A stretch of 40,725 bases of DNA, taken from the NCBI GenBank assembly GCA_943349075.1, contig CALQYY010000003.1, positions 1-40,725 on the forward strand. The letters run 5' to 3'. Both the position numbers and the translations under genes were made by a program. This document shows positions 6,379 to 20,048 of this stretch, in pieces. The stretch comes from Candidatus Magasanikiibacteriota bacterium (lineage in GTDB: Bacteria > Patescibacteriota > Patescibacteriia > Magasanikbacterales > 2-02-FULL-50-9b). The notes under the pieces were generated by a model, which saw only the letters and a list, made by a program, of their open reading frames with translations, did no database searches and was not told where the DNA came from. Position 1 is the first letter of the stretch, and every line of letters starts with the position of its first letter.

Positions 6379-6510
6379 CTAATTACAGAAGACTTGGCTC
6401 AGCCATTTTCCCTTCGGGAAAATAGAGGGACCTGCGTCAGAAACAATGAGTTGCTAATTATAAGACTTGGCCCACCTATTTTTCTTTCAGAAAAATAGTG
6501 GGACCTGCGT
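6379..6510. repeat. two imperfect ~57-bp direct repeats, each with an internal hairpin (REP-like)
   Basis: CTAATTA..AAGACTTGGC-[hairpin]-GGGACCTGCGT at 6379-6437 and 6455-6510. Confidence 0.8.
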
Positions 6511-6551
6511 TCGGAGCAAATCCGGACGCGAGCGTCCGATTTGCTCCGAAC
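6509..6551. repeat. near-perfect inverted repeat just 5' of the tRNA
   Basis: GTTCGGAGCAAATC-C-GGACGC-GA-GCGTCC-GATTTGCTCCGAAC. Confidence 0.85.
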
Positions 6552-6553
6552 TT

Positions 6554-6628
6554 GGTCCCATCGTCTAACGGTTAGGACATTAGGTTTTCATCCTAAAAAC
6601 AGGGGTTCGATTCCCCTTGGGACTACCA
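6554..6628 (+). tRNA. tRNA-Glu (TTC)
   Basis: GGTCCCA/TGGGACT acceptor stem, TTAGG-TT-TTC-AT-CCTAA anticodon arm, GGTTCGATTCC T-arm, encoded CCA. Confidence 0.96.
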
Positions 6629-6687
6629 AAAAATACCAGCTTCGGCTGGTATTTTTTATTTAGGTAGTCCCAAGGGGAATCGAACGG
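6623..6687. repeat. 65-bp module copy 1: terminator plus inverted tRNA-Glu 3' end
   Basis: 64/65 identical to 7427-7491; 6663-6685 is the exact reverse complement of tRNA positions 6605-6627. Confidence 0.93.
6628..6657. terminator. bidirectional intrinsic terminator
   Basis: AAAAAATACCAGC-TTCG-GCTGGTATTTTTT. Confidence 0.9.
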
Positions 6688-6796
6688 GCATAAAGGAATT
6701 GCCTGGGGCAATTCCGACTGCCCCGGACCGCGAGCGCCCAAGCGCGAACGGCGATTCCCGATCTAAAAAATAAGTAACACTTGTCAAAACCATTCA

Positions 6797-7354
6797 TTAC
6801 TTTGGTTGTACCGCAGAATCGAACTTAAGCGAATTCATCACTTGCTGACCATATGAATTCATAAATTCTACATCGTAGGCAATCACTATGATGCGAGACT
6901 TATCAAGGGTTGGAATTGCAACAATATCTAATGAAAAAAGTCCTTCAGCATGTGTTTTAACAGCTTGTAAATTGCTTACAACCACCGGCTCGACCTTCAT
7001 TCCTGCCGAATAATGACCAGACTTTTGTTTTAACCACTGCTCCGCTGACATTCCTTTTGGAAGAACATCTGAGGTTATGTCTACAGTTGCAGGGCCATCA
7101 AATGATTCGAGATTCTGTTTCTTGATAGATTCATAAGTCTCAACGTCCCACAAACTGACGTATGAACCACCATTACTAGATGTGCTGCCTTCGCCGAATA
7201 TCATCGTTCCTTGAGGAACTACAAAAGAAACCCCAGGAAGTGAGTACACGACCTCTTTGTTTGATAATTCAGGTGCAGTAGCTGGCTGCTGCACCGCGCA
7301 TCCTGCTCCAACAAACAAAAGCACCACTGGTAGAATAAAATATTTCAATTTCAT
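6797..7354 (-). CDS. putative lipoprotein, possibly PsbP/Mog1p-like fold (cassette 1)
   Basis: MKLKYFILPVVLLFVGAGC signal; the fold call is a weak pattern-based guess. Confidence 0.75.
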   Translation of the reverse strand: MKLKYFILPVVLLFVGAGCAVQQPATAPELSNKEVVYSLPGVSFVVPQGTMIFGEGSTSSNGGSYVSLWDVETYESIKKQNLESFDGPATVDITSDVLPKGMSAEQWLKQKSGHYSAGMKVEPVVVSNLQAVKTHAEGLFSLDIVAIPTLDKSRIIVIAYDVEFMNSYGQQVMNSLKFDSAVQPK

Positions 7355-7381
7355 ATATACAAATTATTTTAAACTAGTATA
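7337..7381 (-). repeat. 45-bp promoter/leader/start block copy 1
   Basis: Identical to 8237-8281; on the minus strand contains TATACT (-10), the leader and codons for MKLKYF. Confidence 0.93.
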
Positions 7382-7426
7382 ACACAGGGAGAGGTGTTAT
7401 AAAGATGTTTTGCCTACCGCTTTGAT

Positions 7427-7491
7427 CTACCAAAAAATACCAGCTTCGGCTGGTATTTTTTATTGAGGTAGTCCCAAGGGGAATCGAACGG
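7427..7491. repeat. 65-bp module copy 2: terminator plus inverted tRNA-Glu 3' end
   Basis: Matches 6623-6687 with one mismatch; terminator hairpin 7432-7461; tRNA fragment 7467-7489. Confidence 0.93.
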
Positions 7492-7639
7492 CTCGAAGCG
7501 TAGAAAAAAAGTTCTGTGAACTTTTTTTTTCAGTGAGAGGGGCTGAGCCCTGCGAAGCCCGGGGTCGTAGACTGATTTTACATGTAACAATTCGATGAAC
7601 TGCCCCGGACCGCGAGCGACGAATCCGCCACGATCCTTT

Positions 7640-8254
7640 TTATATCTCTCTCACACACTTATCCTCAGCTATCTGCGCATCCTTACGCATTTTTTCTGGC
7701 ACAACAAAACTCCGTTTGTTTAAATTTGTACCACTGATCGCAAAGAATTTTTCTGATTTCCACATCTGCCAACATGGTCCTGGTGAATTATCTACACCCG
7801 ATTCAAAGAAAATAAAATCACCACCAATAACATCAGCACCTCTAAATTCAGAACCAAATGCGTAAGATGATTTAATTTTTTCAGAATAAATCATCTTTGC
7901 ACCAAGCACAGCGTCAACGGAGCCTGTCTGCTGGTATTGTACATCACGAGTTGCATCGTATAACCAAATATTTTGCGTATCACCCATATTTCCAGACTCT
8001 GTAATAAAATAATATCGCATCGGATTTGTATCATCTTTAAAAGTTTCGACACCGTGTGCGCGATGAATTGCGAGCTCTACCCGCGCTGCAAATAACTCCG
8101 ACTTTAATTGAGTATTTTCTGAAGAAAGTTGTGATGTCTCAGACTGAACAATGTTTGGCTCCAATGAAACTTCTACACTTTCAGGACTAACTTTCTGACA
8201 CCCTCCACCAATAAGTAGAAGCATCGCTGGCAAAACAAAATATTTCAATTTCAT
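7640..8254 (-). CDS. putative lipoprotein, hypothetical (cassette 2)
   Basis: MKLKYFVLPAMLLLIGGGC signal, short coiled coil; mature part not visibly similar to cassette 1. Confidence 0.75.
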   Translation of the reverse strand: MKLKYFVLPAMLLLIGGGCQKVSPESVEVSLEPNIVQSETSQLSSENTQLKSELFAARVELAIHRAHGVETFKDDTNPMRYYFITESGNMGDTQNIWLYDATRDVQYQQTGSVDAVLGAKMIYSEKIKSSYAFGSEFRGADVIGGDFIFFESGVDNSPGPCWQMWKSEKFFAISGTNLNKRSFVVPEKMRKDAQIAEDKCVREI

Positions 8255-8304
8255 ATATACAAATTATTTTAAACTAGTATATCATCGGGGGGGGGTCATC
8301 GCAA
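8237..8304 (-). promoter_or_regulatory. 45-bp block copy 2 and promoter with a 9-nt homopolymer in the spacer
   Basis: TTGCGA(8304-8299)-17 nt including C9 (G9 on plus, 8287-8295)-TATACT(8281-8276). Confidence 0.7.
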
Positions 8305-8396
8305 CACACACCCCTTGACAAAACATATACACATATCGCCAAACCCCAACAAAACGTGATAAAATATCACCAATAATTAATCAGGTAACAAAACGT

Positions 8397-8678
8397 ATGG
8401 CAAAAATGACAAAGTCAGCGATCCTTGATGCATTAGCTGGCAGCACAGAACTCACAAAGAAGGATGTCGGCGCAGTGCTCGACGCAATGGCAACTCTCGC
8501 TTACAAGGAAGTTAAGAAGAGTGGCGAATTCGTTGTTCCAGGTATCGGAAAGCTTGTTAAGATCGCTCGCAAGGCACGCATGGGCCGCAACCCAGCAACT
8601 GGCGAACAGATCAAAATTGCTGCAAAAACAGTAGTTAAGTTCCGCGTTGCAAAGGCAGCTAAGGACGCAGTACTCTAA
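8397..8678 (+). CDS. hup: HU family DNA-binding protein
   Basis: MTKSAILDALA, RKARMGRNPATGEQIKIAAK, VKFRVAK. Confidence 0.96.
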   Translation: MAKMTKSAILDALAGSTELTKKDVGAVLDAMATLAYKEVKKSGEFVVPGIGKLVKIARKARMGRNPATGEQIKIAAKTVVKFRVAKAAKDAVL

Positions 8679-9792: not shown

Positions 9793-12177
9793 TTATCGAA
9801 TAGTCGCGCTGCATTTAGATTCGAGCGCGTTGATTACCGCCGCGTGTGCAATTGCAAGCTCTTCGCCTGACAACGTGTGATCGTCTGAACGATACAGCAC
9901 ATGAAGTGCTGGCGCCTTTTTGCCCTCGCCGAGCTGAGGTCCTCTGAAAATGTCGAACAATTCAACATTTCGAACAAGTGGGTGCGCACCCAAAACAGCT
10001 TGGGTAATCACATCAAGATGTACCGACTCATCGACAGTAAAAGCTACGTCCCGAACAGAACCCTGAAAAACCGGCGCTGAACTGTATTTTTTGCTGAGTG
10101 ATTTCTGAGAGTAAAGCAGTGTTAAATCAATTTCGGCAAGTACTGTTTCGTGTTCGAGTCCCATCTCATTTTGAATTGTCGGGTCTAATATTGCGATACA
10201 CCCAACAACACAATCACCGACCACAACAGAACCTGCAGATCCTTTTTTCCACCAACCCTCAAAGCTTTGTGGAAGCACAACACTGGCCTCATATCCAAAA
10301 TTTTGAAGCACGCGAATCACCATTTCACGAACCTGCGCAAAATTTTGCTTTGCGTGTTTTTCAGAAAATGCAATTCCTAATTTTGTTGGCTGCGCATCGT
10401 GTGAAAAAACTTTTGCGATTTCAAAAATCGCAACACGACTCTGGCTGCGCTGATTTTTCTCAACAACCTCCGCGAGATTCATGACGAGTGTCGGCGCCAA
10501 ATATGGTCGCTCGCTCGAAAGTGGATTTGCAAGTTCGATGAGCCCCTCGCTCGCATATCCAAAAAGCGCAGCCGTCTGTGGACGCACATACGCATACGTA
10601 TTCACCTCCGTGAGGCCGTGTCGAAACGCGCACAACTCTTTGATGCGATATTGCTCTCGCACAACCGGAAGCTCCTCAATATTTCGAAGCGCAATTGCAG
10701 GAAGCGCTGATGGAATTTTTTCGTAACCAACCAAGCGCACAATTTCCTCAACGATATCGTGTACACCTTTAATATCTTTCAAACGAAATGTTGGAACGGT
10801 CACGCGAATTTTCTTTGCGTCACCCTTGCAGACAAACCCAAGCTGTCCCAAAATCTTTTTTGCCGCACTGAGCGTAATTCCCTCACCAATCGCGCGCGTA
10901 ATATCGTCCTGCGAAACATCAAGTGTTCCTGGTTTTGGCAACGCTTTTTTCTGATCAACAACTTTCGAAACAACGCGCGCCGCTGGAAAAATCTGAAGAA
11001 GGAGTTCAACTGCACGTGCCAACCCAAGTTCGGTATTATTTGCATCCAAACCTTTTTCAAAACGACTCGAGCTTTCCGTGCGCACGCGCATACGCGTAGA
11101 TGTCTGACGAACTGAACTTCCTGAAAAATTCGCCGACTCAATCACAACTGATGTCGTCGCATCCGAAACCGCGTGTTCCACACCGCCAATCACACCCGCA
11201 ACTGCAATCACATCATTTTTTGTTGCAACAACAAGTCCTCCCGCTGGAATGTCATACGTTTTCCCATCAAGCGCGTTTATTTTTTCGCCCGCGTGCGCTT
11301 TTCGCACAACAATTTTTCCTCCCGCAGAATTAAAATCAAACGCATGAAGCGGCTGACCCGTTTCAAGCATCACATAATTTGTAACATCAACAAGCGCGTT
11401 GATTGGTCGCACACCTGAAACCAGCAAACGCTTCTGCATCCATACTGGCGACGGCGCAGCAGCAACACCGCTAACAACTACCGCCTGATAACGAGAACAC
11501 AAAGCACTATCGTCAACCGAAACATCGAGTGCAACATCCGATTTCCCTTTAATAGTTTTCGCAGCTGGCAACATAACTTTTGCATCAAGCACTGCGCCGA
11601 ATTCGCGCGCGAGCCCGCGAAGGCCCCACAAATCCGGACGATTCGACAACGCCTTGTTATCGAGCTCAAACAACACACCATTTTTTCCGAGCGCCTGCGC
11701 AAGTGGAGTTCCAGCCTTCGCTTTGAGATGCGACAAATCCAAAATTTCTTTCTCACCACCTTTTGGAAAATCTGCCGCCAAACCAATTTCGTCAGCACCA
11801 CAAATCATGCCATCACTTTTGATTCCACGAATTTCAGCAGGCTCGAGCGTAATTAAATCACCCTCGCCATGCCACTGCACGCGCGCACCAATACGCGCGA
11901 GCGCAACCTTCTGTCCAATTTCCAAATTCGAACCACCGCACACAATCTGAAGTGGAACATGCTCACCAACATCAACCAAACAAATGCGAAGCCGATCCGC
12001 TTTTGGATGTGGACCAATTTCACCAATCACGCCAACGCAAATGTTGTCGAGAACTTCGCCTTCGCGAACAATGCCCTCAACTTCTGCTGTTCGGAGCGTA
12101 AAAATTTGCGCGATTTTTTCATCGCTTTGCCCTGTAAGATCTACAAATTCTGATAACCATTCTTTTGAGATGAGCAT
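9793..12177 (-). CDS. pheT: phenylalanine--tRNA ligase beta subunit
   Basis: MLISKEWLSEF, HPKADRL, SDGMIC, NRPDL, DVTNYVMLETGQPLHAFD, RFEKG, C-terminal RDVAF anticodon-binding domain. Confidence 0.98.
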   Translation of the reverse strand: MLISKEWLSEFVDLTGQSDEKIAQIFTLRTAEVEGIVREGEVLDNICVGVIGEIGPHPKADRLRICLVDVGEHVPLQIVCGGSNLEIGQKVALARIGARVQWHGEGDLITLEPAEIRGIKSDGMICGADEIGLAADFPKGGEKEILDLSHLKAKAGTPLAQALGKNGVLFELDNKALSNRPDLWGLRGLAREFGAVLDAKVMLPAAKTIKGKSDVALDVSVDDSALCSRYQAVVVSGVAAAPSPVWMQKRLLVSGVRPINALVDVTNYVMLETGQPLHAFDFNSAGGKIVVRKAHAGEKINALDGKTYDIPAGGLVVATKNDVIAVAGVIGGVEHAVSDATTSVVIESANFSGSSVRQTSTRMRVRTESSSRFEKGLDANNTELGLARAVELLLQIFPAARVVSKVVDQKKALPKPGTLDVSQDDITRAIGEGITLSAAKKILGQLGFVCKGDAKKIRVTVPTFRLKDIKGVHDIVEEIVRLVGYEKIPSALPAIALRNIEELPVVREQYRIKELCAFRHGLTEVNTYAYVRPQTAALFGYASEGLIELANPLSSERPYLAPTLVMNLAEVVEKNQRSQSRVAIFEIAKVFSHDAQPTKLGIAFSEKHAKQNFAQVREMVIRVLQNFGYEASVVLPQSFEGWWKKGSAGSVVVGDCVVGCIAILDPTIQNEMGLEHETVLAEIDLTLLYSQKSLSKKYSSAPVFQGSVRDVAFTVDESVHLDVITQAVLGAHPLVRNVELFDIFRGPQLGEGKKAPALHVLYRSDDHTLSGEELAIAHAAVINALESKCSATIR

Positions 12178-13204: not shown

Positions 13205-13287
13205 ATGTCTAAAAACTATCGAATGATACCTGAAGTTATACACTATTTTGCCCATAAATTACAAGATCCGTGGCGCAACACCAATTG

Positions 13288-13316
13288 TTGACACTTCAGC
13301 AAAATTTTGCTATAAA
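13288..13316 (+). promoter_or_regulatory. strong sigma70 promoter of the Cys-rich operon
   Basis: TTGACA-17-TATAAA with TG extension; GGAGG SD at 13363-13367. Confidence 0.75.
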
Positions 13317-13374
13317 CAGACCCAGCCATCCACGCATTTGTGGGTGTGTCCGAATTCTATCCGGAGGTCCGAGA

Positions 13375-15000
13375 ATGAAGCCCTTTCTTTTGTTCATCTT
13401 GTTGGCGTGCGCAATTGGTGCGTGCGAAGGTTCTGACACCACCGTTCCATCCGTGGAAGCCGTTGGAGATGCATCCGGCGCTGACACTGTCCACAAAGAT
13501 GGTGGAGGAGCCGACACAAGCTCTGTGGTCATGTGCTCAGAGGCGCAGATGCAGACCGGCTACTGCGACGACTTCAACAAGTGCACCGAGAGCGACTCGT
13601 GTCGCGCTGACGGAACCTGCGAGGGCAACCCCTTCACCTGCGACGACGGCAACAAGTGCACCGTTGACTCGTGCTCCCCAAAAATTGGCTGTTCGACGGT
13701 GCCAAACATCGGAGCGCAGTGCAATGATGGCGACGAGTGTACAGGAAACGACGTGTGCAAATCCGGTGGCTCATGCGTCGGCGAAGCTAAGTCGTGCGAC
13801 GACGGCAATCCATGCACGATCGACGCATGCAACAAAAATAAGGGCTGCTACTACGCCAATTCGCAAGGTAGTTCATGCGAAGACGGCAATCCGTGCACCA
13901 CGAGCGACGCATGCCAAAATGGTTTATGCTCGCCTGGGCTCGCGAAGGTGTGCAACGACGGGAACGCCTGCACAACCGACAGCTGCGACCAAGAAGACGG
14001 TGTTTGCACCTCGTCGCCATCCGGCGAAAACGAGAAGTGCGACGACAACAACCCATGCACGGAAGATGATCGCTGCAAAAGCGGCAAATGCGCTTCCGGC
14101 AAAAGCAAGGTCTGCCCAAGCAATCAGTGCTACATAGAGATGTGCAGCGAAAGCACGGGTCAATGTGTCATCACGTTCGAAGGCAACATACTGACGACGT
14201 GCTCAGACAATGATGCGTGCACATCCAATGACACCTGCAACGTGACCGAGAAGAAATGTCAGGGCGTGCCGAAAAAATGCAATGACAGCAACGAGTGTAC
14301 GGAGGATTTATGCATCAGCTCGGTTGGCTGCCAGCATCCAAAGCAAGAGAACATCACGTGCGACGACAACGACTCCTGCACGAACCAAGACCTGTGCAAG
14401 CAAGGTGTCTGCGTCGGGCAAAAGAAAAACTGCAATGACAGCAACCCGTGCACGAGCGACTTTTGCGCGCCCAGCGGCCAGTGCGACCACCCCGTCGTCA
14501 CCGGGCAATCGTGTGAGGACGGCAATACCTGCACCAAGGACGATGTCTGCCAATCGTCGGGTGTGTGCATTGGCAAGAGTCTCGACTGCAACGACGGAAA
14601 CGATTGCACGAGCGATTCCTGCAACCCGACCAGCGGCTGCAAAAGCACCAAACTTTCGGGCAACGTTTGTTCAGATGGCAAACTCTGCACCGAAGGCGAC
14701 AAATGCTCCGAAGGCAACTGCGTCGGCAAAGCAAAAGTGTGCGACGACGGCAATCCTTGCACCGACGACGCGTGTCTAGAAGGAAGCGGTACGTGCCAGA
14801 ACAAAATTGTCGCCGCAGATTTGTACACCTGCAAAGACCCGAACAATGTCTGCGCGCCGGGCGCGATCGGGGTTTGCAAAGCAGGTGGTGTCTGTGTGAC
14901 AGAAGCGCCCTGCGACGACAACAACAAGTGCACAACCGACGCCTGCGACAAAGCGGCAAAAAAGTGTGTGCACCTGCCCGTTGTCGGGTGCATGCAATAG
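13375..15000 (+). CDS. Cys-rich repeat lipoprotein (CDDGNPCTxDxC, Dictyostelium/myxobacterial CTDC-type repeats)
   Basis: MKPFLLFILLACAIGAC lipobox-like signal after GGAGG; about 20 tandem ~24-aa four-Cys repeats. Confidence 0.88.
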   Translation: MKPFLLFILLACAIGACEGSDTTVPSVEAVGDASGADTVHKDGGGADTSSVVMCSEAQMQTGYCDDFNKCTESDSCRADGTCEGNPFTCDDGNKCTVDSCSPKIGCSTVPNIGAQCNDGDECTGNDVCKSGGSCVGEAKSCDDGNPCTIDACNKNKGCYYANSQGSSCEDGNPCTTSDACQNGLCSPGLAKVCNDGNACTTDSCDQEDGVCTSSPSGENEKCDDNNPCTEDDRCKSGKCASGKSKVCPSNQCYIEMCSESTGQCVITFEGNILTTCSDNDACTSNDTCNVTEKKCQGVPKKCNDSNECTEDLCISSVGCQHPKQENITCDDNDSCTNQDLCKQGVCVGQKKNCNDSNPCTSDFCAPSGQCDHPVVTGQSCEDGNTCTKDDVCQSSGVCIGKSLDCNDGNDCTSDSCNPTSGCKSTKLSGNVCSDGKLCTEGDKCSEGNCVGKAKVCDDGNPCTDDACLEGSGTCQNKIVAADLYTCKDPNNVCAPGAIGVCKAGGVCVTEAPCDDNNKCTTDACDKAAKKCVHLPVVGCMQ

Positions 15001-15009
15001 GAGGGTCCA

Positions 15010-15927
15010 GTGAAGATTCGTTCAATTCTTTTTATGATGGTGATGGCGGCGTGTGCTGCGTGCTCACCGGACGAAGCCGCAGCGCCACGCGATGTGGTGG
15101 CTGATACGGACACCGAATCCCCTGACCTCTCTGCGGAGGAAGTTCCTCTGCTCAGAATTGAAGGGGGTGCAGAGCTTTTGGTTGTAAGCGGCCAATTCCG
15201 TGCGCCCTGCGCGGAAAATTCCGAGTGCGACAACGGCTACTGTGTCCTGACACTCAGCGGCAAGGTGTGCTCAAAAAACTGCGCGAGCAGCTGCGAACAC
15301 CCCGAATTCGTCTGCGACCAAGCACCTGGCGGCGACCCTGTCTTCATCTGCGTCCCCAAGCACACAACTGAAGTGTGCGACGGGGTCGATAACGATGGAG
15401 ACTTCAAGGTCGACGAAGACCTGTGCGAGGATGGAAATCCGTGCACACTCGACGAGTGCAATCTCGGCGGGCCACAAGGGTCGTGCAAACACGTAGAGCT
15501 CAACGGCAATTCGTGTTTTGACGGCTCCGTGTGCACAGAAGATGACACATGCATCAATGGAGTCTGCAAAGGCGGCGCGAAAAAGAAATGCGTCGACGGA
15601 AACTCCTGCACCAAAGATGATGTGTGCGACCCGGCCAGCGGCTGCCAATTTCCTCCGCAAGCCGGTCCGTGCGATGACGGTAATCCATGCACAGGCATCG
15701 GATCCGACGAAAAGCAAGTCGCACCCGACACATGCGCAAGCGGCGAATGCAAGCCCGGCGCACCGTCACACTGCGACGACCACAACCCCTGCACAAATAA
15801 CCTGTGTAAGCCGGCCGGAGGCTGCTATTTCAAAGCAGTTCCCGATCAGCCAAACAATGGCTGCCCCAAAGATGGCGACCCGAGCACCGTCGAGTGGTGC
15901 GTCGCCGGTTTGTGCAGCTACAAGTAA
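15010..15927 (+). CDS. Cys-rich lipoprotein with CTDC repeats and a MopE-like EVCDGVDNDGD motif
   Basis: GTG start after GGAGGG; MKIRSILFMMVMAACAAC signal; EVCDGVDNDGDFKVDED; CEDGNPCT and CDDGNPCT repeats. Confidence 0.85.
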   Translation: MKIRSILFMMVMAACAACSPDEAAAPRDVVADTDTESPDLSAEEVPLLRIEGGAELLVVSGQFRAPCAENSECDNGYCVLTLSGKVCSKNCASSCEHPEFVCDQAPGGDPVFICVPKHTTEVCDGVDNDGDFKVDEDLCEDGNPCTLDECNLGGPQGSCKHVELNGNSCFDGSVCTEDDTCINGVCKGGAKKKCVDGNSCTKDDVCDPASGCQFPPQAGPCDDGNPCTGIGSDEKQVAPDTCASGECKPGAPSHCDDHNPCTNNLCKPAGGCYFKAVPDQPNNGCPKDGDPSTVEWCVAGLCSYK

Positions 15928-16054: not shown

Positions 16055-17962
16055 CTACTGGCAGACCGCGCATTCCTCGTTCGCCACATCCCTCTTCATC
16101 GTCTTCCCATCAATTCGCTCCGCCTCAATTGGCGCCGCGCTGCGCAAGTAATAGAGTGACTTCATACCAACCTGCCATGCAAGGAAATGAACATCGTTCA
16201 AATACTTACCGCTAATTGGTGTTGAGAAGAATACGTTGATCGATTGCGCCTGATCAATATATGGCTGACGATCCGCTGCCTGCTGCACAATTTCGCGCAT
16301 ATTCATTTCGTATGCAGTTCGGAACACCATCTTTTCTTCTTCGCTCAAGATATCGAGAAACTGCACACTTCCCTTTGCCGCGATAATTTCCTTCCACACT
16401 TCCGAATTGTTTGCGCCCTTTGTCTCGAGCAATTTCTCAAGTGATTTATTTTTCACCAAGAAACTTCCTGACAATGTTTTCTGCAAATATGCATTTCCTG
16501 AAATCGGCTCAACACATGGCGTTGCTTCGCCACAAATAAATGCGGTCGACGCAGTTGGCTGAATACTTGTCACGTAAGTGTTGCGACGTGTTCCCCCATC
16601 GAGCGGAAGTCCGCGCTCCTGGCCCAAACGCTCTGACGCTGCATGCGCTGCATCGCCAATCGTTTTAAACATCACCTTGTTTGTCGAGCGTGCGAGCACA
16701 CTTTCAAACGGAATCATTTTGCTCATCAAATATCCGTGATAACCCATCACACCGAGACCAATCGAGCGTTCATGCTTCACCGAATTAATTGCTTTTGTAT
16801 ATTCCTTTGTTGGCGCCATTTCGATGAACGCATCGAGATTGTTGTCCAAACATTTCACACACAAATAGGCAATCTCATTTACCTGCTCCTTCCACTCGTC
16901 CCAGCGTTCGAGATTCAAATTTCCGAGACAGCAAACTGCGGTGCGCTCTTCATTCGTCGGCAACACAATTTCCGTACACAAATTGCTCTGACGAACAAAA
17001 AGTCCCAAATCTTTGTGATGCTGTGGAACCGCGCGATTAACGGTGTCGATGTATACGATATATGGTTCACCTGTTTCTGCACGAAGTGTCAAAATCTTGC
17101 GCCAGATATCGAGCGCTGGAAGTGTTTTAGCAATCGTCTTGTAGTGCGGATCGATCAAATTAAAATCTGCCTGCGCCTCAACCGCTTTCATGAATTCATC
17201 CGTCACCACAACGCCGTGATTCAAATTCATGCACTTGCGATCTGGATCGCCGCCGGTTGGTTTGCGCATCTCCAAAAATTCTTCAATATCTGGATGATCA
17301 ACGCGCAAGTATGCCGCAGCAGCGCCACGACGAATTCCGTTGCGCGAAACTGCGATCGTTTCTGAGTCCATGATTTTCAAAAATGGAAGCACACCACTTG
17401 AGCGAAGTCCTGATGACTGAAGCGGCGCATTCTGTCCGCGAAGCTGTGACCAATCTGTTCCAATACCACCACCGTTTTTTGCAAGAAATGCATTCTCGCG
17501 ATAAATATCAAAAATACCTTCGAGTGTATCTGGAACGGTGTTGAGAAAACATGAGATCGGCAAACCCTTGCGCGTACCAATATTCATGAGCACCGGTGTT
17601 GCAGGAATAAACCACATCTTACTCATCACGTCGTAGATTTTCTGTGCGAGTTCGCGATCGCCGCGTGACATTCCTGTTGCAACTCGCGCGAGAAAAGTCT
17701 GAGGGTCTTCGCAGATTTCATTATTTGCGTCGCGCAAAAAATAACGATCACGCATATTTTCGAGGCCGAAATATGAGTGGAGCGCGTTATTTTCCGGGTG
17801 GAGCTGAATTGATTTCTGAACTTCAATATCAGCATTGTAGTGTGGACAATCCCAACTATTTTTGCCCGCGGTTTTGCTCAAAATTTCCTCGAGCAATAAA
17901 TCGCGGGCGCTTGCAAGATCGTTGTTTGAGAGCGCGTCAATGACGGATGAGTATAAGAGCAT
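16055..17962 (-). CDS. nrdA: class Ia ribonucleotide reductase alpha subunit (compact, no intact ATP cone visible)
   Basis: ATPVLMN, ISCFL, GGGIG, QSNLCTEI, CCLGNLN, QPTAS, KSLYYLR, C-terminal CAVC. Confidence 0.96.
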   Translation of the reverse strand: MLLYSSVIDALSNNDLASARDLLLEEILSKTAGKNSWDCPHYNADIEVQKSIQLHPENNALHSYFGLENMRDRYFLRDANNEICEDPQTFLARVATGMSRGDRELAQKIYDVMSKMWFIPATPVLMNIGTRKGLPISCFLNTVPDTLEGIFDIYRENAFLAKNGGGIGTDWSQLRGQNAPLQSSGLRSSGVLPFLKIMDSETIAVSRNGIRRGAAAAYLRVDHPDIEEFLEMRKPTGGDPDRKCMNLNHGVVVTDEFMKAVEAQADFNLIDPHYKTIAKTLPALDIWRKILTLRAETGEPYIVYIDTVNRAVPQHHKDLGLFVRQSNLCTEIVLPTNEERTAVCCLGNLNLERWDEWKEQVNEIAYLCVKCLDNNLDAFIEMAPTKEYTKAINSVKHERSIGLGVMGYHGYLMSKMIPFESVLARSTNKVMFKTIGDAAHAASERLGQERGLPLDGGTRRNTYVTSIQPTASTAFICGEATPCVEPISGNAYLQKTLSGSFLVKNKSLEKLLETKGANNSEVWKEIIAAKGSVQFLDILSEEEKMVFRTAYEMNMREIVQQAADRQPYIDQAQSINVFFSTPISGKYLNDVHFLAWQVGMKSLYYLRSAAPIEAERIDGKTMKRDVANEECAVCQ

Positions 17963-17995
17963 AGTATTTTTATAAATGAATGAGCCGCGATCGCT

Positions 17996-18958
17996 TTACC
18001 AATCTGACACAACTGTTCCCTTCGAATATTCTGTTGCACGATTTTCGAAGAAGTTTGCGTGTTCTTTTGCGTTCACCATAACATCGAGCCATGGGAGCGG
18101 ATTTTGCACGTGGTACATCATGTCCAAACCAAGTTCACCGAGTTTGCGATCCGCGGTATAGCGCACGTACTCCTTAACTTGCTGCGCGGTGAGCCCTGGA
18201 ACCGGACCCATCGAGAAACATGCATCAACGAACGCATCCTCGAGTGCGACCATGTCGCGACACGCGGTGTAAAGTTTTTCGCGGAACGCATCGGTCCAGA
18301 GCTGTTTGTTCTCCGAAATAAAATCTCGGAACAACTGACAGACGCCGCGACTATGCAGCGTTTCATCGCGAATACTCCATGTCACGATTTGACCAACGCC
18401 GCGAAGTTTTCCAAGGCGTGGAAAGTTCATCAAAATCGCAAACGACGCAAACAAACTCACGCCTTCCACAAATCCACCAAACACCGCGAGATTAATCGCG
18501 AGATTTTCTGGCGACTCTGTATCAAACGTCTGCAAATAATTATATTTGCCGCGCATTGATTCGTATTCGAGAAACGCTGAGTATTCCTGCTCTGGAAGTC
18601 CGAGCGAATCATTCAAATATGAGTATGCCCACACATGGACACTTTCCATTGCAGCAAACGACGAAAGCATCATCTTGATTTCTGGCTTTGGAAAACATGG
18701 AATGAGGCGCGTGTTGTAATTGTTGTTCACCTCAATATCGGCTTGCGTGAAAAAACGAAGAATCTGAATAATCAAATTCGCTTCTGGCGGCGTTAAGTTG
18801 AAACGATAATCAATAATATCGTTTTCCATTGGAACTTCCGTTGGAAGCCAATGCGCTTGGTTCTGTTTTTTGAAAAATTCAAAATACTCTGGGTACTCAA
18901 ATGGTCGATACACGTTGCGTGGGGTCAAAAGTGCGCACGAATTTTGGAGGGAGCTCAT
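17996..18958 (-). CDS. nrdB: class Ia ribonucleotide reductase beta subunit
   Basis: HWLPTEV, FFTQAD, ESVHVWAY (radical Tyr), VEGVSLF, RDETLH, NFFENRATEY. Confidence 0.96.
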   Translation of the reverse strand: MSSLQNSCALLTPRNVYRPFEYPEYFEFFKKQNQAHWLPTEVPMENDIIDYRFNLTPPEANLIIQILRFFTQADIEVNNNYNTRLIPCFPKPEIKMMLSSFAAMESVHVWAYSYLNDSLGLPEQEYSAFLEYESMRGKYNYLQTFDTESPENLAINLAVFGGFVEGVSLFASFAILMNFPRLGKLRGVGQIVTWSIRDETLHSRGVCQLFRDFISENKQLWTDAFREKLYTACRDMVALEDAFVDACFSMGPVPGLTAQQVKEYVRYTADRKLGELGLDMMYHVQNPLPWLDVMVNAKEHANFFENRATEYSKGTVVSDW

Positions 18959-19033
18959 ATCGGAGGGAAAATTACCTCATGGAGAGGGAGGCCATCAGTA
19001 TACCTTGTTTAAAATTTTTGGAAAGATACATAA

Positions 19034-19081
19034 ACACAACATCTTGTGTTGATAACTTATTCACAGCACAAGATGTTGCGT
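19034..19081. promoter_or_regulatory. tandem NrdR boxes with interleaved DnaA boxes
   Basis: ACACAACATCTTGTGT (19034-19049) and GCACAAGATGTTGCGT (19066-19081), starts 32 bp apart; TTATTCACA (19057-19065) and minus-strand TTATCAACA (19055-19047). Confidence 0.75.
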
Positions 19082-19166
19082 TTTGTAAAAAAAGTGGTAT
19101 AGCTTTTGATAGCCCCTACACCTTCTGAACCTTTTGTGATAAACTAGCCACAAAATCATTATTCCT

Positions 19167-20048
19167 ATGCATGTAGTTATTATCGGTGCCGGACGTATCG
19201 GACAGGCATTTAAACATTTGTGCGAGGCGCGCGCGGAATCTGTATCGCTTTTTGATGCAGACACAACCAAAGTTCCCGACCAGCGACCACTTGCGGAAAT
19301 AATTCCACCAGCGGATGTGATTTTTTTGTGCATCCAATCGTTCGCAATTCGCGAAGTTCTCGCAGAACTCAAACCGCTTTTAAAACGAGCGGCGCTTGTT
19401 GTCTCGCTCGCCAAAGGAATCGAGCGTAACACCTTTAAAACATTGGACATTGTTATTCCAGAATGCCTCGCACCCGAGCAGCCATGGGGTCTGATTATTG
19501 GCCCAATGCTTGCTGAGGAAATTTTACAAAACCAGGGTTCAGCAGGTGTATTCGCGGGATCAAACCCTGAAGAATGCACAATCCTCTCGTCACTTATTGA
19601 TCCACACAACCTCAGTCTCGAATGTTCGACTGATATACACGGCGTCGCGCTTGCAGGTGTTCTGAAAAACATCTACGCACTTTCGCTCGGCATTGCTGAT
19701 GGCATCGGCTGGGGCGCGAACCGCAAAGGCTGGCTCATCACCCGCGCGATTCGCGAGATGCGCGACATTATCGAAATTCTCGGCGGCGATCCAAATACCG
19801 CTGACGGCCCTGCAGGACTCGGCGATCTAATCGCAACCGGCTCAAGCCCACACTCACGCAATCGCGCAACAGGCGAGCAGATCGTAACAACCGGACAAAT
19901 GAATCCGCTCAGCGAGGGTTACATTTCCCTATCGTCTTTGAAACACCTTCTCGGTGAGCGCACATCTGAATTTAAAATTCTCTCAACCTTAATCGAAATC
20001 ATTGAACACAAACAGGATGCAAGAACAGTCTACAAACAACTCGTATGA
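19167..20048 (+). CDS. gpsA: NAD(P)H-dependent glycerol-3-phosphate dehydrogenase
   Basis: IIGAGRIG, SLAKGIE, GPMLAEE, GVLKNIYA, GLGDLIATG, SRNR. Confidence 0.92.
   Translation: MHVVIIGAGRIGQAFKHLCEARAESVSLFDADTTKVPDQRPLAEIIPPADVIFLCIQSFAIREVLAELKPLLKRAALVVSLAKGIERNTFKTLDIVIPECLAPEQPWGLIIGPMLAEEILQNQGSAGVFAGSNPEECTILSSLIDPHNLSLECSTDIHGVALAGVLKNIYALSLGIADGIGWGANRKGWLITRAIREMRDIIEILGGDPNTADGPAGLGDLIATGSSPHSRNRATGEQIVTTGQMNPLSEGYISLSSLKHLLGERTSEFKILSTLIEIIEHKQDARTVYKQLV

What the first reader, a model, noticed from the sequence alone, without database searches (positions are those of the whole stretch)
6554..8304. tRNA-Glu-anchored tandem cassette array: conserved flanks around unrelated lipoprotein passengers
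Seen: two ~0.8-0.9 kb units follow tRNA-Glu. Each carries (i) a 65-bp module, 64/65 identical (6623-6687, 7427-7491), starting with the tRNA's last bases CTACCA, then a terminator, then an inverted tRNA 3' end; (ii) an identical 20-bp GC motif ACTGCCCCGGACCGCGAGCG (6717-6736, 7599-7618); (iii) a minus-strand lipoprotein gene; (iv) an identical 45-bp -10/leader/MKLKYF block (7337-7381, 8237-8281). The mature proteins show no visible similarity. Simple duplication would tend to conserve the coding region better than the flanks, and the reverse is seen here. Inference: an integron-like or gene-conversion system that swaps surface-protein cargo between fixed promoter/signal and tRNA-derived arms, with no recombinase encoded locally.
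Basis: partly seen in the sequence, partly recalled or inferred. Interest (0 to 1): 0.85.

Follow-up and report, generated by a model that had tools for sequence, protein, structure and literature searches.

The report
Variable lipoprotein cassettes beside tRNA-Glu
Next to a tRNA-Glu gene of a tiny-genome (Magasanikbacteria-like) bacterium sit two unrelated lipoprotein genes that share a copied promoter and export signal, each followed by a small hairpin element found after many tRNA genes, and related populations carry one, the other or both genes.

Summary
All four repeats are real. The 65-bp (64/65) and 45-bp (45/45) blocks occur only at this locus; the 20-bp GC motif does not.

The tRNA-derived arm and GC motif belong to a ~115-135-bp hairpin element I call TDE. 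It lies convergent to, and 22-37 nt downstream of, 12 of 28 tRNA genes here and 20 of 20 hits examined in relatives. It usually carries a direct copy of that tRNA's T-loop-to-3'-end segment, a covarying hairpin and its own terminator. Rfam has no match.

The lipoproteins are unrelated beyond the signal peptide. LP1 is PsbP/DcrB-like, and its MKLKYF signal is native to its family. LP2 belongs to another family, was not found in 30 relatives, and carries a grafted LP1-type promoter, leader and signal.

The locus is polymorphic:
- LP1 only, in one metagenome contig;
- LP2 only, or TDE plus LP2, in other runs;
- another gene plus LP1;
- large serine recombinases at the same tRNA in two relatives.

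My reading is a tRNA 3'-end insertion and recombination hotspot with stacked cassettes, closest to Dehalococcoides ssrA islands. It is not an integron. The enzyme and mechanism are inferred.

The parts
6389..6553 (+). Upstream repeats: two ~58-nt hairpin units (6389-6446, 6462-6519; 79% alike), each starting like the tRNA's leader plus 5' acceptor strand, then a perfect hairpin (6509-6551).
   Evidence: the repeat finder family D3 and pair I8. The copy number or sequence of the ~73-nt unit differs in contigs of other runs, with joints 6385->6460/6464/6468 and 6426->6500. Similar units lie upstream of tRNA-Glu(CUC) on C24.
6554..6628 (+). tRNA-Glu(UUC) gene with encoded CCA. It anchors the array.
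   Evidence: ARAGORN; Rfam tRNA 66.5 bits.
6623..6687 (.). 65-bp block, copy 1: the last 6 nt of the tRNA, a two-way terminator hairpin (6628-6657) and an inverted copy of the tRNA's T-loop-to-3'-end (6659-6685).
   Evidence: The metagenome locus L053 carries the same block at 63-64/65, whereas L054 has a different terminator there (33/65).
6654..6773 (-). TDE1, the canonical tRNA-downstream element.
   Evidence: Covariance model R1, 97.6 bits, E 2.5e-25; fold -27.5 kcal/mol, z -4.2; covariation.
6753..6775 (+). Truncated direct copy of the tRNA T-loop/T-stem 3' part: 7 nt exact, then a degenerate acceptor remnant and an A-tract.
   Evidence: exact run of 7 nt in the window, L053 and L054.
6797..7354 (-). 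LP1, a 185-aa probable lipoprotein whose mature part is PsbP/DcrB/Mog1-like.
   Evidence: ORF. Homologues at 82-97% identity in 5 clusters. ESM Atlas structure matches with TM 0.61-0.66 to PsbP-like clusters. AF2 pLDDT 63 and weak Foldseek hits to PsbP, DcrB and EagT6, E from 4e-3. 27% identical to a G003 lipoprotein.
7299..7394 (-). Promoter/leader/signal block, copy 1: an extended -10 (TG-n-TATACT), a 5' leader and the signal peptide up to the lipobox Cys. The core 7337-7381 is identical in both copies.
   Evidence: (promoter-like site 7403..7376 with TG).
7382..7426 (+). Junction piece J. Its last 29 nt are a decayed copy (16/29 by my own count) of the tRNA T-arm region that precedes the 65-bp block.
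   Evidence: the repeat finder family D2. It is also present upstream of LP1's promoter in L053 (alignment A3; 75% identity).
7427..7491 (.). 65-bp block, copy 2 (64/65 to copy 1).
7462..7640 (-). TDE2, a composite element. Its 5' arm and GC motif (7599-7623) and its 3' T-loop copy are of the TDE type, but its interior is of a second type, also found after tRNA-Met on contig C5.
   Evidence: Read from the sequence. The interior aligns to C5 with score 70, against shuffles of 22 +/- 3.5, maximum 36. R1 does not detect it.
7640..8254 (-). LP2, a 204-aa probable lipoprotein. Its mature part belongs to a different family with a conserved SPGPC..W..C signature.
   Evidence: ORF. 57 representatives with E <= 1e-3 at 21-38% identity (one, a 29-residue fragment, at 97%). 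The 12 homologues read have other N-termini, and the invariant columns are in A5. Not found in 30 relatives with this query. The AF2 single-sequence model is unusable, pLDDT 35.
8199..8294 (-). Promoter/leader/signal block, copy 2.
   Evidence: (promoter-like site 8304..8276 with TG).
8282..8396 (.). Intergenic region between LP2 and the HU-like gene (8397-8678). In L054 the same sequence precedes LP1.
   Evidence: Alignment A3; 94.4% identity to L054.

Best explanation
The locus is a strain-variable islet built at the 3' end of tRNA-Glu(UUC), a site where DNA is repeatedly inserted and exchanged in this lineage. It has two layers.

Layer 1, the TDE element. The tRNA-derived arm plus GC motif is a ~115-135-bp palindromic element (TDE) that occupies the 3' flank of many tRNA genes. 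On the tRNA strand the order is: tRNA, a new two-way terminator, an inverted copy of the tRNA's T-loop-to-3'-end, a conserved hairpin core, and then a direct copy of the T-loop-to-3'-end segment (17-20 nt), sometimes followed by the old terminator. This is the signature of insertion into the T-loop with duplication or replacement of the tRNA's 3' end. Repeated events give tandem arrays.

Layer 2, the cargo genes. Single genes with their own promoter sit between these units. LP1 is a resident-type lipoprotein. LP2 is a foreign gene that received a copy of LP1's promoter, leader and signal peptide.

The repeated 65-bp and 45-96-bp blocks then act as recombination arms. Haplotypes with LP1 only, with LP2 only and with both all exist, and their differences end at these blocks.

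Shown: the anatomy, the genome-wide family, the polymorphism, and the unrelatedness of the two cargo proteins.
Inferred: that TDEs arise by insertion, that cassettes are gained and lost by recombination between the repeats, and which enzyme does it. Homologous recombination is sufficient. A trans-acting large serine recombinase or Xer is possible.
For: TDE family.
- R1 gives 15 hits in G000, all convergent to 12 different tRNA genes out of the 28 found.
- All 20 of the 20 best hits fetched from relatives lie 22-37 nt downstream of, and convergent to, a tRNA gene of many isoacceptor types.
- Of the 35 tRNA-TDE loci examined, 19 carry a direct copy of the T-loop-to-3'-end at >=75% identity, several at 17-20/17-20, and 21 carry an exact inverted run of >=10 nt starting at the T-loop.
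- Orthologous tRNAs are empty or filled. tRNA-Ser(CGA) is empty in G001 and filled in G000, G002 and G003. The sequence after G003's direct repeat resembles the sequence after G001's tRNA, 8/11 by my own count. tRNA-Ile(UAU) is full in G000, mini in G001 and empty in G002 and G003.
- Tandem and truncated copies occur on C24, C40 and C26.
- Covariation in 22 relatives' copies: 91% of cells paired, 18 of 23 pairs with compensatory change, 0 of 500 shuffles as high, and 36-47% paired when partners are slid.
- Distribution: 6 of 6 genomes of the same family, 3 of 24 others of the order, and 16 of 150 others of the class.

Cargo.
- hhalign aligns the LP1 and LP2 families only over 23 signal-peptide columns.
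- LP2's mature domain was not found in 30 relatives, but it has 57 remote representatives, and the 12 read have other N-termini.
- The MKLK[YF]F signal is shared by LP1 and by two G003 paralogues that are homologous to LP1.
- GC content is 42.1% in LP1 and 38.7% in LP2, against 46-49% in neighbouring genes.

Polymorphism.
- L054 has HU, the same intergenic region, LP1, a TDE and the tRNA, with one cassette only. Its two homology blocks to the window overlap exactly in the promoter block.
- L053 has another secreted 209-aa gene, then 16 nt of block 2, J, LP1, a TDE and the tRNA.
- One contig of run X1 joins 6622 to 7427, skipping 804 nt, which is the LP1 unit. One contig of run X6 joins 6688 to 7449 with 89 other letters between.

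Exchange of the unit.
- T1 plus inverted copy, the TDE1 core and LP1 are 97%, 97% and 89% identical to L053, while the flanking VKOR-like gene is only 78%.
- Against L054 the pattern is reversed: the VKOR-like gene is 92% and T1 plus inverted copy is 75%.

Same site used by other mobile DNA.
- Large serine recombinase genes converge on and overlap tRNA-Glu(UUC) in G004 and G006, tRNA-His in G000 and tRNA-Glu(CUC) in G001. In G001 a 7.3-kb element sits between the tRNA and an older terminator plus mini-TDE.
Against: - No recombinase, transposase, reverse transcriptase or Cas1 that could move TDEs was found in the 87.6%-complete genome, apart from one Xer-like gene and one partial large serine recombinase at another tRNA.
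- In the window itself TDE1's direct repeat is truncated to 7 nt, and R1 does not recognise TDE2.
- 16 of the 35 loci lack a clear direct copy.
- No direct repeat of the tRNA end was found for the serine-recombinase element of G006 within 13 kb or genome-wide. None was found in G004, where the contig ends 2 kb on. The link between these enzymes and TDEs is therefore only positional.
- G-U and A-C mismatches are equally frequent in the helices (13:13 and 12:9). The structure could therefore act as DNA or as RNA, and a purely functional origin without insertion is not excluded.
- The X1 joint has only 27 nt on its short side and lies in a repeat. The tool warns that such joints can come from repeats or from other organisms.
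- The window's own junction (J, 65-bp block 2, TDE2) was not seen in any independent sequence that I could read.
- The species compared are 70-90% identical, so the empty/filled comparisons rest on short flanks.
Confidence: 0.6

Rival explanations
1. A dedicated site-specific cassette platform, working like an integron. The TDE folds, as single-stranded DNA or as a cruciform, into a stem that mimics the double-stranded T-loop/3' end of the tRNA gene. A trans-acting recombinase recognises this structure and inserts or excises cassettes of the form TDE plus gene at tRNA T-loops.
For: - A TDE follows each of the two genes, as an attC follows a cassette gene.
- Structure is conserved more strongly than sequence, with strong covariation and no strand bias in wobble pairs.
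- The closing stem is made of target-derived sequence.
- Haplotypes differ by whole units.
- The unit is more conserved than its chromosomal flank against L053.
- Recombinases use these tRNA ends in relatives.
Against: - Most TDEs carry no cargo.
- There is no integron integrase. The Xer-like protein scores 139 bits against a cut-off of 265 for the integron-integrase model.
- The cassettes have their own promoters.
- No circular or excised form was seen, although contig data cannot show one.
- All observed differences can be produced by homologous recombination between repeats of 45-96 bp.
Confidence: 0.15
2. An ordinary local tandem duplication of an ~800-900-bp unit (tRNA T-arm, terminator, TDE, lipoprotein gene, promoter). 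One gene body was later replaced or diverged, and gene conversion kept the flanks alike. No insertion process specific to tRNA ends is involved.
For: - The three repeat pairs are collinear, with offsets of 804, 882 and 900 nt.
- The 29 nt before block 2 look like a decayed tRNA T-arm, 16/29 by my own count.
- Identity within the genome exceeds identity between orthologues, as gene conversion would give.
Against: - The mature domains are unrelated by profile comparison, and LP2 has its own remote family.
- TDE2's interior is of another type, shared with a tRNA-Met flank.
- Single-cassette haplotypes of both kinds exist.
- This model does not explain why the same element lies after 11 other tRNA genes.
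Confidence: 0.12
3. The TDE is chiefly a functional RNA or transcription element, such as a 3'-UTR stabiliser, a terminator-insulator between convergent genes, or a small RNA that mimics or pairs with the tRNA 3' end. On this view it is not a scar of insertion, and its presence beside the lipoprotein genes is incidental.
For: - Position and orientation relative to the tRNA terminator are fixed.
- The helices covary.
- In 5 of the 13 G000 loci listed it lies directly after a same-strand gene, so it would be transcribed as a 3' UTR.
Against: - Presence is patchy among orthologous tRNAs of congeners.
- Tandem, truncated and nested copies occur.
- Direct repeats include the old terminator.
- G-U pairs show no excess over A-C.
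- There is no consistent promoter where no gene lies upstream (reading).
- Rfam has no family for it.
Confidence: 0.15
4. The two-cassette arrangement is an assembly chimera of co-existing LP1-only and LP2-only haplotypes, joined through the 65-bp and 45-bp repeats.
For: - The genome is a 53-contig metagenome bin, and many contigs end at tRNA/TDE loci.
- Both single-cassette forms exist in public data.
- I saw no independent sequence that spans J, block 2 and TDE2.
Against: - L053 independently shows LP1's promoter followed by J and the first 16 nt of block 2, so J is a real neighbour of LP1.
- The repeats are shorter than typical reads and the largest assembly k-mers (this point is inference).
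- J is unique sequence, found nowhere else in the assembly.
Confidence: 0.08

Closest known systems
Dehalococcoides ssrA-specific genomic islands (McMurdie et al. 2011, PMC3146451; passages read)
   Same: [quoted passage not shown]
- The islands are bounded by the gene and by ~20-bp direct repeats of its 3' end.
- Several islands are stacked in tandem downstream.
- A large (~540-aa) serine recombinase lies on the reverse strand next to attL.
- A conserved element-derived motif lies next to each repeat.
- The authors discuss non-autonomous 'cis-mobilizable' units and accretion.
   Different: - Here the targets are many different tRNA genes and not one tmRNA gene.
- The commonest unit is only ~115-135 bp, has no genes, and carries a conserved three-way hairpin structure, an inverted copy of the target and its own terminator.
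- The window has no recombinase.
- No direct repeat was found for the serine-recombinase elements of G006 and G004.
Integron gene cassettes (ORF plus attC, inserted by IntI at attI); features recalled, not read here
   Same: - Single-gene units stand in tandem.
- Each gene is followed by an imperfect palindrome whose structure is conserved more than its sequence.
- Cargo is unrelated from unit to unit.
- Cassette number varies between strains.
   Different: - There is no IntI, attI or Pc.
- The cassettes have their own promoters and are transcribed towards the anchor.
- The palindromes are built from the sequence of the adjacent tRNA.
- Most palindromes have no cargo.
Mycoplasma variable lipoprotein loci, vpma/vsp (Chopra-Dewasthaly et al. 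2008, PMC2268961; passages read). The conserved signal peptide of these families is recalled, not seen in those passages.
   Same: - Clustered lipoprotein genes in a small-genome bacterium share a conserved 5' region.
- That paper places the recombination sites at -1 to -72 from the start codons.
- A tRNA gene lies next to the locus in one strain's map.
   Different: - There an adjacent Xer1 recombinase inverts DNA to move a single promoter between genes (phase variation).
- Here both genes have promoters and the same orientation, no recombinase is adjacent, and the variation seen is between populations.
MITEs and REP/BIME-type intergenic palindromes (general knowledge; PMC11602168 seen only as a search listing)
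   Same: It is a small, non-coding, multi-copy, hairpin-forming element in intergenic 3' regions, with patchy distribution among relatives.
   Different: - Its target is strictly tRNA 3' ends, in one orientation.
- The duplication is 17-20 nt and runs to the end of the tRNA.
- The 'terminal inverted repeats' are copies of the target and not of the element.
- No cognate transposase was found.

Membership tests
Integron | Integron integrase (IntI) gene next to the array | tested here: not met
   There is no recombinase in the window. The only Phage_integrase-family gene of the assembly, on C20, matches Xer models best. It scores 139 bits on the integron-integrase subfamily model against a cut-off of 265. 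The genome is 87.6% complete.
Integron | Promoterless cassettes expressed from a common Pc | tested here: not met
   Each gene has its own extended -10 promoter-like site (TG + TATACT) 28 nt (by my own count) upstream of its ATG.
Integron | attC sites with R''/L''-L'/R' boxes and a GTTRRRY core | tested here: not met
   The TDE arms are T-loop-derived (TTCGAWTCC...). The consensus of A1 shows no GTTRRRY core. The consensus motif itself is recalled.
T-loop-targeting serine-recombinase islands (Dehalococcoides ssrA-GI type) | Direct repeat of ~20 bp of the target's 3' end, starting in the T-loop | tested here: met
   19 of the 35 tRNA-TDE loci have it at >=75% identity, always starting at GAWTCC of the T-loop. 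In the window the copies are truncated (6753-6775) or decayed (7398-7432).
T-loop-targeting serine-recombinase islands (Dehalococcoides ssrA-GI type) | Large serine recombinase on the reverse strand next to the target gene | tested here: inconclusive
   Met at the same tRNA in G004 and G006 (Resolvase + Recombinase + Zn_ribbon), at tRNA-His in G000 and at tRNA-Glu(CUC) in G001. Not met in the window or beside any TDE.
T-loop-targeting serine-recombinase islands (Dehalococcoides ssrA-GI type) | Tandem units bounded by the repeats | tested here: met
   The window has two units. C24 has 2 plus a truncated third, C40 has 2 or more, and C26 has 2. In G001 C11 an element has been inserted between the tRNA and an older unit.
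T-loop-targeting serine-recombinase islands (Dehalococcoides ssrA-GI type) | Excision and integration shown (circles, empty sites) | not testable with these tools
   Only assembled contigs of public runs could be laid. They show haplotypes that lack a unit, but they cannot show circles or rare junctions.
MITE | Element-specific terminal inverted repeats, short target duplication and a related autonomous transposon | tested here: not met
   The inverted arms copy the neighbouring tRNA. The duplication is 17-20 nt. No Y1 transposase, reverse transcriptase or Cas1 was found in G000. The 34 viral contigs that share a 15-mer gave no R1 hit.
Mycoplasma-type phase-variable lipoprotein locus | Adjacent recombinase and invertible promoter-bearing segment | tested here: not met
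   No adjacent recombinase is present. Both genes are on the same strand with their own promoters.
PsbP/DcrB/Mog1p-like fold (LP1 only) | Alpha-beta sandwich matching PsbP-like structures | tested here: inconclusive
   The Atlas model gives TM 0.61-0.66 to PsbP-like clusters. My AF2 model has pLDDT 63 and only weak Foldseek hits, best E 4e-3 and TM ~0.4. There is no Pfam or NCBIfam hit.

The most novel reading that the evidence does not exclude
The TDE is a new kind of recombination site. It is a self-folding DNA module whose closing stem re-creates the double-stranded T-loop/3' end of whichever tRNA gene it sits beside. An unidentified trans-acting enzyme uses it to insert small modules and single-gene cassettes at the T-loops of many different tRNA genes. 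That would amount to a tRNA-anchored functional analogue of the integron in ultra-small (CPR) bacteria, supplying their surface-protein variability.
Probability: 0.15. Interest if true: 0.85.

Novelty: new variant of a known kind. Interest (0 to 1): 0.6.

Why it matters
CPR/Patescibacteria have tiny genomes and depend on contact with other cells, yet little is known about how they vary their surface. Four points follow from this locus.

- tRNA 3' ends are the places where such genomes take up and shuffle small pieces of DNA. Many contigs of this assembly break there.
- A ready-made promoter-plus-export-signal module has been copied onto a foreign gene, which is a simple route to put new proteins on the surface.
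- A structured mini-element, absent from Rfam and from the papers I could search, marks 12 of 28 tRNA genes and occurs sporadically across the class.
- If the element proves to be an insertion sequence or an attachment site, it defines a target rule: the T-loop of many different tRNA genes (at least 22 anticodon types among those examined), with a 17-20-nt duplication. I could match that rule to no known transposase or integrase family.

For annotation, these elements and the tRNA fragments they carry explain pseudo-tRNA-like pieces and assembly breaks in CPR bins.

Tried and rejected
- Rfam, at gathering and at E-value thresholds, gave only the tRNA. The weak rsmX and permuted-tmRNA rows are terminator or T-arm look-alikes.
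- A scan of viral contigs with a 15-mer of the TDE core gave 34 loci. None matched model R1, so these are chance matches.
- Searches of G000 for Resolvase (PF00239), RVT_1, Y1_Tnp and Cas1 found nothing. PF07508 later found a partial serine recombinase at the start of contig C23. Its N-terminal domain lies off the contig, which explains the PF00239 miss.
- I looked for a direct repeat of the tRNA-Glu end at the far side of the serine-recombinase elements. None was found in G006 within 13 kb or genome-wide, and G004's contig ends too early.
- The AF2 model of LP2 without an alignment has pLDDT 35 and is unusable. No structural comparison of LP1 with LP2 was therefore possible. The ESM Atlas has no model of, and no usable hit for, LP2.
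- My first reading, that three unrelated mature domains carry the MKLKYF signal, was wrong. G003's two lipoproteins are paralogues and are homologous to LP1. Direct BLASTP of LP1 against the G003 tRNA-Glu-locus protein had shown only the signal.
- I first took L054 for a very close strain because the HU protein is identical. Nucleotide identity along the locus is mosaic at 75-99%, so I make no claim that LP1 evolves faster than its flanks.
- Sequencing runs: no RNA holder is listed, so nothing can be said about expression. In the four DNA runs laid as contigs, depth over the LP1 part is lower than over LP2 and the flanks. Contig depth cannot rank parts of a stretch, so I use only the two joints.
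- The terminator scan did not list the hairpin at 6628-6657.
- Literature searches found no description of such an element: tRNA + Patescibacteria + inverted repeat + T-loop; tRNA genes + target site duplication + miniature + T-loop + bacteria; Magasanikbacteria + tRNA. This covers only the open-access library searched. Supplements were not seen.

Full report
OBSERVATION

The window is contig C3 of a 727-kb, 53-contig assembly that is 87.6% complete. A congener's record is titled Candidatus Magasanikiibacteriota.

tRNA-Glu(UUC) lies at 6554-6628.
- the 65-bp block, 64/65 identical;
- the 20-bp GC motif, identical, within a 25-nt match at 92%;
- the 45-bp block, 45/45 identical, inside a 96-nt match at 82%;
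- two minus-strand ORFs of 185 and 204 aa starting MKLKYF with Cys19.

The tRNA 3' end, the hairpin and the inverted copy together form a 27-bp-armed palindrome of -41.1 kcal/mol as DNA, z -15. The 65-bp and 45-bp blocks are unique to this locus in the assembly. The sequence around the GC motif is not.

THE tRNA-DERIVED ARM IS PART OF A GENOME-WIDE ELEMENT

The region 6675-6729 matched other contigs. Reading those places showed the same architecture after other tRNA genes. On the tRNA strand the order is:
- the tRNA;
- an A/T-flanked hairpin that can terminate both ways;
- an inverted copy of that tRNA's own T-loop, T-stem 3' strand and (often decayed) acceptor strand;
- a conserved long hairpin;
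- a GC hairpin;
- a direct copy of the tRNA from the T-loop (GAWTCC) to its 3' end.

I call this element TDE. A covariance model (R1) was built from 14 copies. Its results:
- It finds 15 matches in the assembly, all beside 12 of the 28 tRNA genes that ARAGORN finds.
- All 20 of the 20 best matches that I fetched from relatives lie 22-37 nt downstream of, and convergent to, a tRNA gene. The tRNAs are Lys, Glu, Gly, Val, Leu, Gln, Trp, Arg, Ser and Asp.
- Every one of 6 genomes of the same family has 1-11 copies. So do 3 of 24 other genomes of the order and 16 of 150 others of the class.

In 22 copies from relatives and metagenome loci that were not used to build the model, 91% of cells pair and 18 of 23 pairs show compensatory change. 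None of 500 shuffles reaches this, and sliding the partners drops pairing to 36-47%. That alignment was fitted to the model, which favours the structure. Covariation in the closing stem is also partly trivial, because both of its arms copy the neighbouring tRNA.

G-U and A-C oppositions are equally common, at 13:13 and 12:9. The fold therefore works equally well on either strand, as expected for a DNA palindrome and less so for an RNA. Rfam holds nothing like it.

IS THE TDE AN INSERTION?

Of 35 tRNA-TDE loci, 19 have the direct copy at >=75% identity, many at 17-20 of 17-20, at +99 to +151 nt. Twenty-one have an exact inverted run of >=10 nt from the T-loop.

Orthologous tRNA genes of congeners are either filled or empty.
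- tRNA-Ser(CGA) is empty in G001 and filled in G000, G002 and G003.
- The bases after G003's direct repeat resemble those after G001's tRNA, 8/11 by my own count.
- tRNA-Ile(UAU) is full in G000, carries a mini version in G001, and is empty in G002 and G003.
- At tRNA-Glu(UUC), G001 has a TDE followed by a perfect copy of the tRNA end including CCA and a second terminator. G002 has none, and G003 has a truncated one.
- Arrays of two copies plus truncated older ones occur on C24, C40 and C26.

Together these look like repeated insertion into the T-loop, in which the element brings a new terminator and the old 3' end is displaced outward. No enzyme for this was found. G000 lacks reverse transcriptase, Y1 transposase and Cas1. 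It has one Xer-like recombinase and one partial large serine recombinase.

THE SAME tRNA ENDS ARE USED BY LARGER MOBILE DNA

- In G004 and G006, a 562-aa and a 519-aa large serine recombinase gene converge on tRNA-Glu(UUC), and their reading frames end inside it.
- In G000, such a gene runs into tRNA-His at the start of contig C23.
- In G001, a 7.3-kb stretch with a 562-aa recombinase lies between tRNA-Glu(CUC) and an older terminator plus mini-TDE.

This matches the Dehalococcoides ssrA islands, which have a T-loop insertion point, 20-bp direct repeats, a reverse-strand serine recombinase at attL and tandem accretion (PMC3146451, passages read). However, I found no direct repeat for the G006 element. 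The tie between these enzymes and TDEs is one of position only.

THE CARGO

- LP1 has close homologues at 82-97% identity and a predicted PsbP/DcrB/Mog1-like fold. The evidence for the fold is moderate from the Atlas and weak from my own model.
- LP2 has 57 remote representatives at 21-38% identity (one, a 29-residue fragment, at 97%) with an invariant SPGPC..W..C signature. The 12 homologues I read have other N-termini.
- LP2's mature part was not found in 30 relatives with this query.
- Profile-profile comparison aligns the two families only over 23 signal-peptide columns.
- G003 has two MKLK[YF]F lipoproteins, one at the tRNA-Glu locus on the other strand and one ~700 nt from tRNA-Ile. They are 30% identical to each other, and one is 27% identical to LP1.

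The signal therefore belongs to the LP1 family, and LP2 carries a graft. The shared block runs from the extended -10 (TG-n-TATACT) through the leader to the lipobox Cys codon. Both cargo genes are lower in GC (42.1% and 38.7%) than their neighbours at 46-49%.

POLYMORPHISM OF THE LOCUS

- Metagenome locus L054 carries HU, the same intergenic region, one cassette (LP1), a TDE and the tRNA. Its two blocks of homology to the window overlap exactly in the promoter block. This is what a deletion or unequal exchange between the two promoter blocks would give.
- L053 carries a different secreted 209-aa gene, then 16 nt of the second 65-bp block, the junction piece J, LP1, a TDE and the tRNA.
- Among contigs of four public lake and groundwater runs, one (X1) joins 6622 to 7427. 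It skips the 804-nt LP1 unit, so the tRNA runs straight into the second block and LP2. Another (X6) joins 6688 to 7449 with 89 other letters between, which gives a TDE-like piece but no LP1. The X1 joint has only 27 nt on one side and lies in a repeat, so it counts as supporting evidence and not as proof.

The promoter block is 45/45 identical within the genome, but 43/45 and 41/45 to L054 and L053. That points to a recent copy or to gene conversion.

The unit made of T1, inverted copy, TDE1 core and LP1 is 97%, 97% and 89% identical to L053, where the flanking VKOR-like gene is 78%. Against L054 the flank is 92% and T1 plus inverted copy is 75%. The unit and its flank therefore have different histories, which indicates lateral exchange of the unit.

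HOW IT MOST LIKELY WORKS

The array is best read as stacked units at a tRNA 3'-end hotspot:
- TDE1 with its terminator;
- LP1 with its promoter, bracketed by two partial copies of the tRNA end (6753-6775 and 7398-7432);
- a second terminator with the composite TDE2, whose interior matches the element after tRNA-Met on C5;
- LP2 with the grafted promoter and signal, next to HU.

The repeated blocks of 65 bp and 45-96 bp are long enough for RecA-type exchange, which would add or remove units and swap alleles between strains. A site-specific route is possible but not shown. The two-cassette state could have arisen by serial insertion or by unequal exchange between LP1-type and LP2-type haplotypes. 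My data do not separate these two routes.

COMPARISON AND NOVELTY

The locus works like a tRNA/tmRNA-linked island with tandem accretion, and looks like an integron array only superficially. It fails each integron feature tested: integrase, common promoter and attC core. It shares the conserved 5' module with Mycoplasma variable lipoprotein loci, but not their inversion switch (PMC2268961, passages read).

Three things appear new, within the limits of three literature searches and Rfam:
- the TDE itself;
- its use of many different tRNA genes with a T-loop-to-end duplication;
- the promoter/signal graft onto a foreign gene.

I rate the finding a new variant of a known kind, with interest 0.6.

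CAVEATS

- This is a metagenome bin.
- The junction J, block 2, TDE2 was not seen in independent data.
- All population evidence comes from assembled contigs.
- No RNA data exist for it.
- The enzyme is unknown.

Noticed in passing
window 6389-6553; also G000 C24 ~1440-1600 and L013 1830-1916: Upstream of tRNA-Glu genes lie tandem ~73-nt units. Each starts like the tRNA's leader plus 5' acceptor strand, then has a stable hairpin and an acceptor-3'-like piece, so it resembles a mini-helix. Their number or sequence differs between public runs (joints 6385->6460/6464/6468 and 6426->6500). The 5' side of these tRNA genes may therefore accrete repeats too.
   Followed up: partly
G000 contig C23:1-923: A partial large serine recombinase ORF, cut by the contig start, reads through into the antisense of tRNA-His (849-923). 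A second, identical tRNA-His on C37 has a mini hairpin element with a 20-nt inverted copy of its 3' end.
   Followed up: partly
L115 (G001 C11) 12014-12135 and 17795-19518: A 7.3-kb stretch with a 562-aa serine recombinase sits between tRNA-Glu(CUC) and an older terminator plus mini-TDE. This shows that new DNA enters right at the tRNA end and pushes older units outward.
   Followed up: partly
G000 contigs C26, C40, C43, C33, C15, C47, C24: Many contigs begin or end within a few hundred bases of a tRNA gene or a TDE array. tRNA-Asn and tRNA-Ser(GCU) each appear at two contig ends. tRNA flanks therefore seem to be where this assembly breaks, as expected for repeats or strain variation.
   Followed up: no
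G000 C5 ~8330-8528 (downstream of tRNA-Met) and window 7500-7600: A second type of tRNA-downstream element has a GC stem, an A-run/T-run hairpin and a conserved 3' box. It is present after tRNA-Met and as the interior of the window's second element. Only two copies were seen.
   Followed up: partly
window 13270-15927 (+): Two adjacent ORFs of 576 and 305 aa, with signal-peptide-like starts, are made of many Cys-rich repeats of the form C..DGN.CT.D.C. They look like large secreted repeat proteins.
   Followed up: no
whole assembly G000: ARAGORN found 28 tRNA genes and no tmRNA gene in the 87.6%-complete assembly.
   Followed up: no
L110 (G003 C20) 850-2081: A fourth MKLKFF lipoprotein (222 aa, LP1 family) lies ~700 nt from tRNA-Ile(UAU), in a ~3.4-kb stretch that interrupts the synteny seen in G000.
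   Followed up: partly
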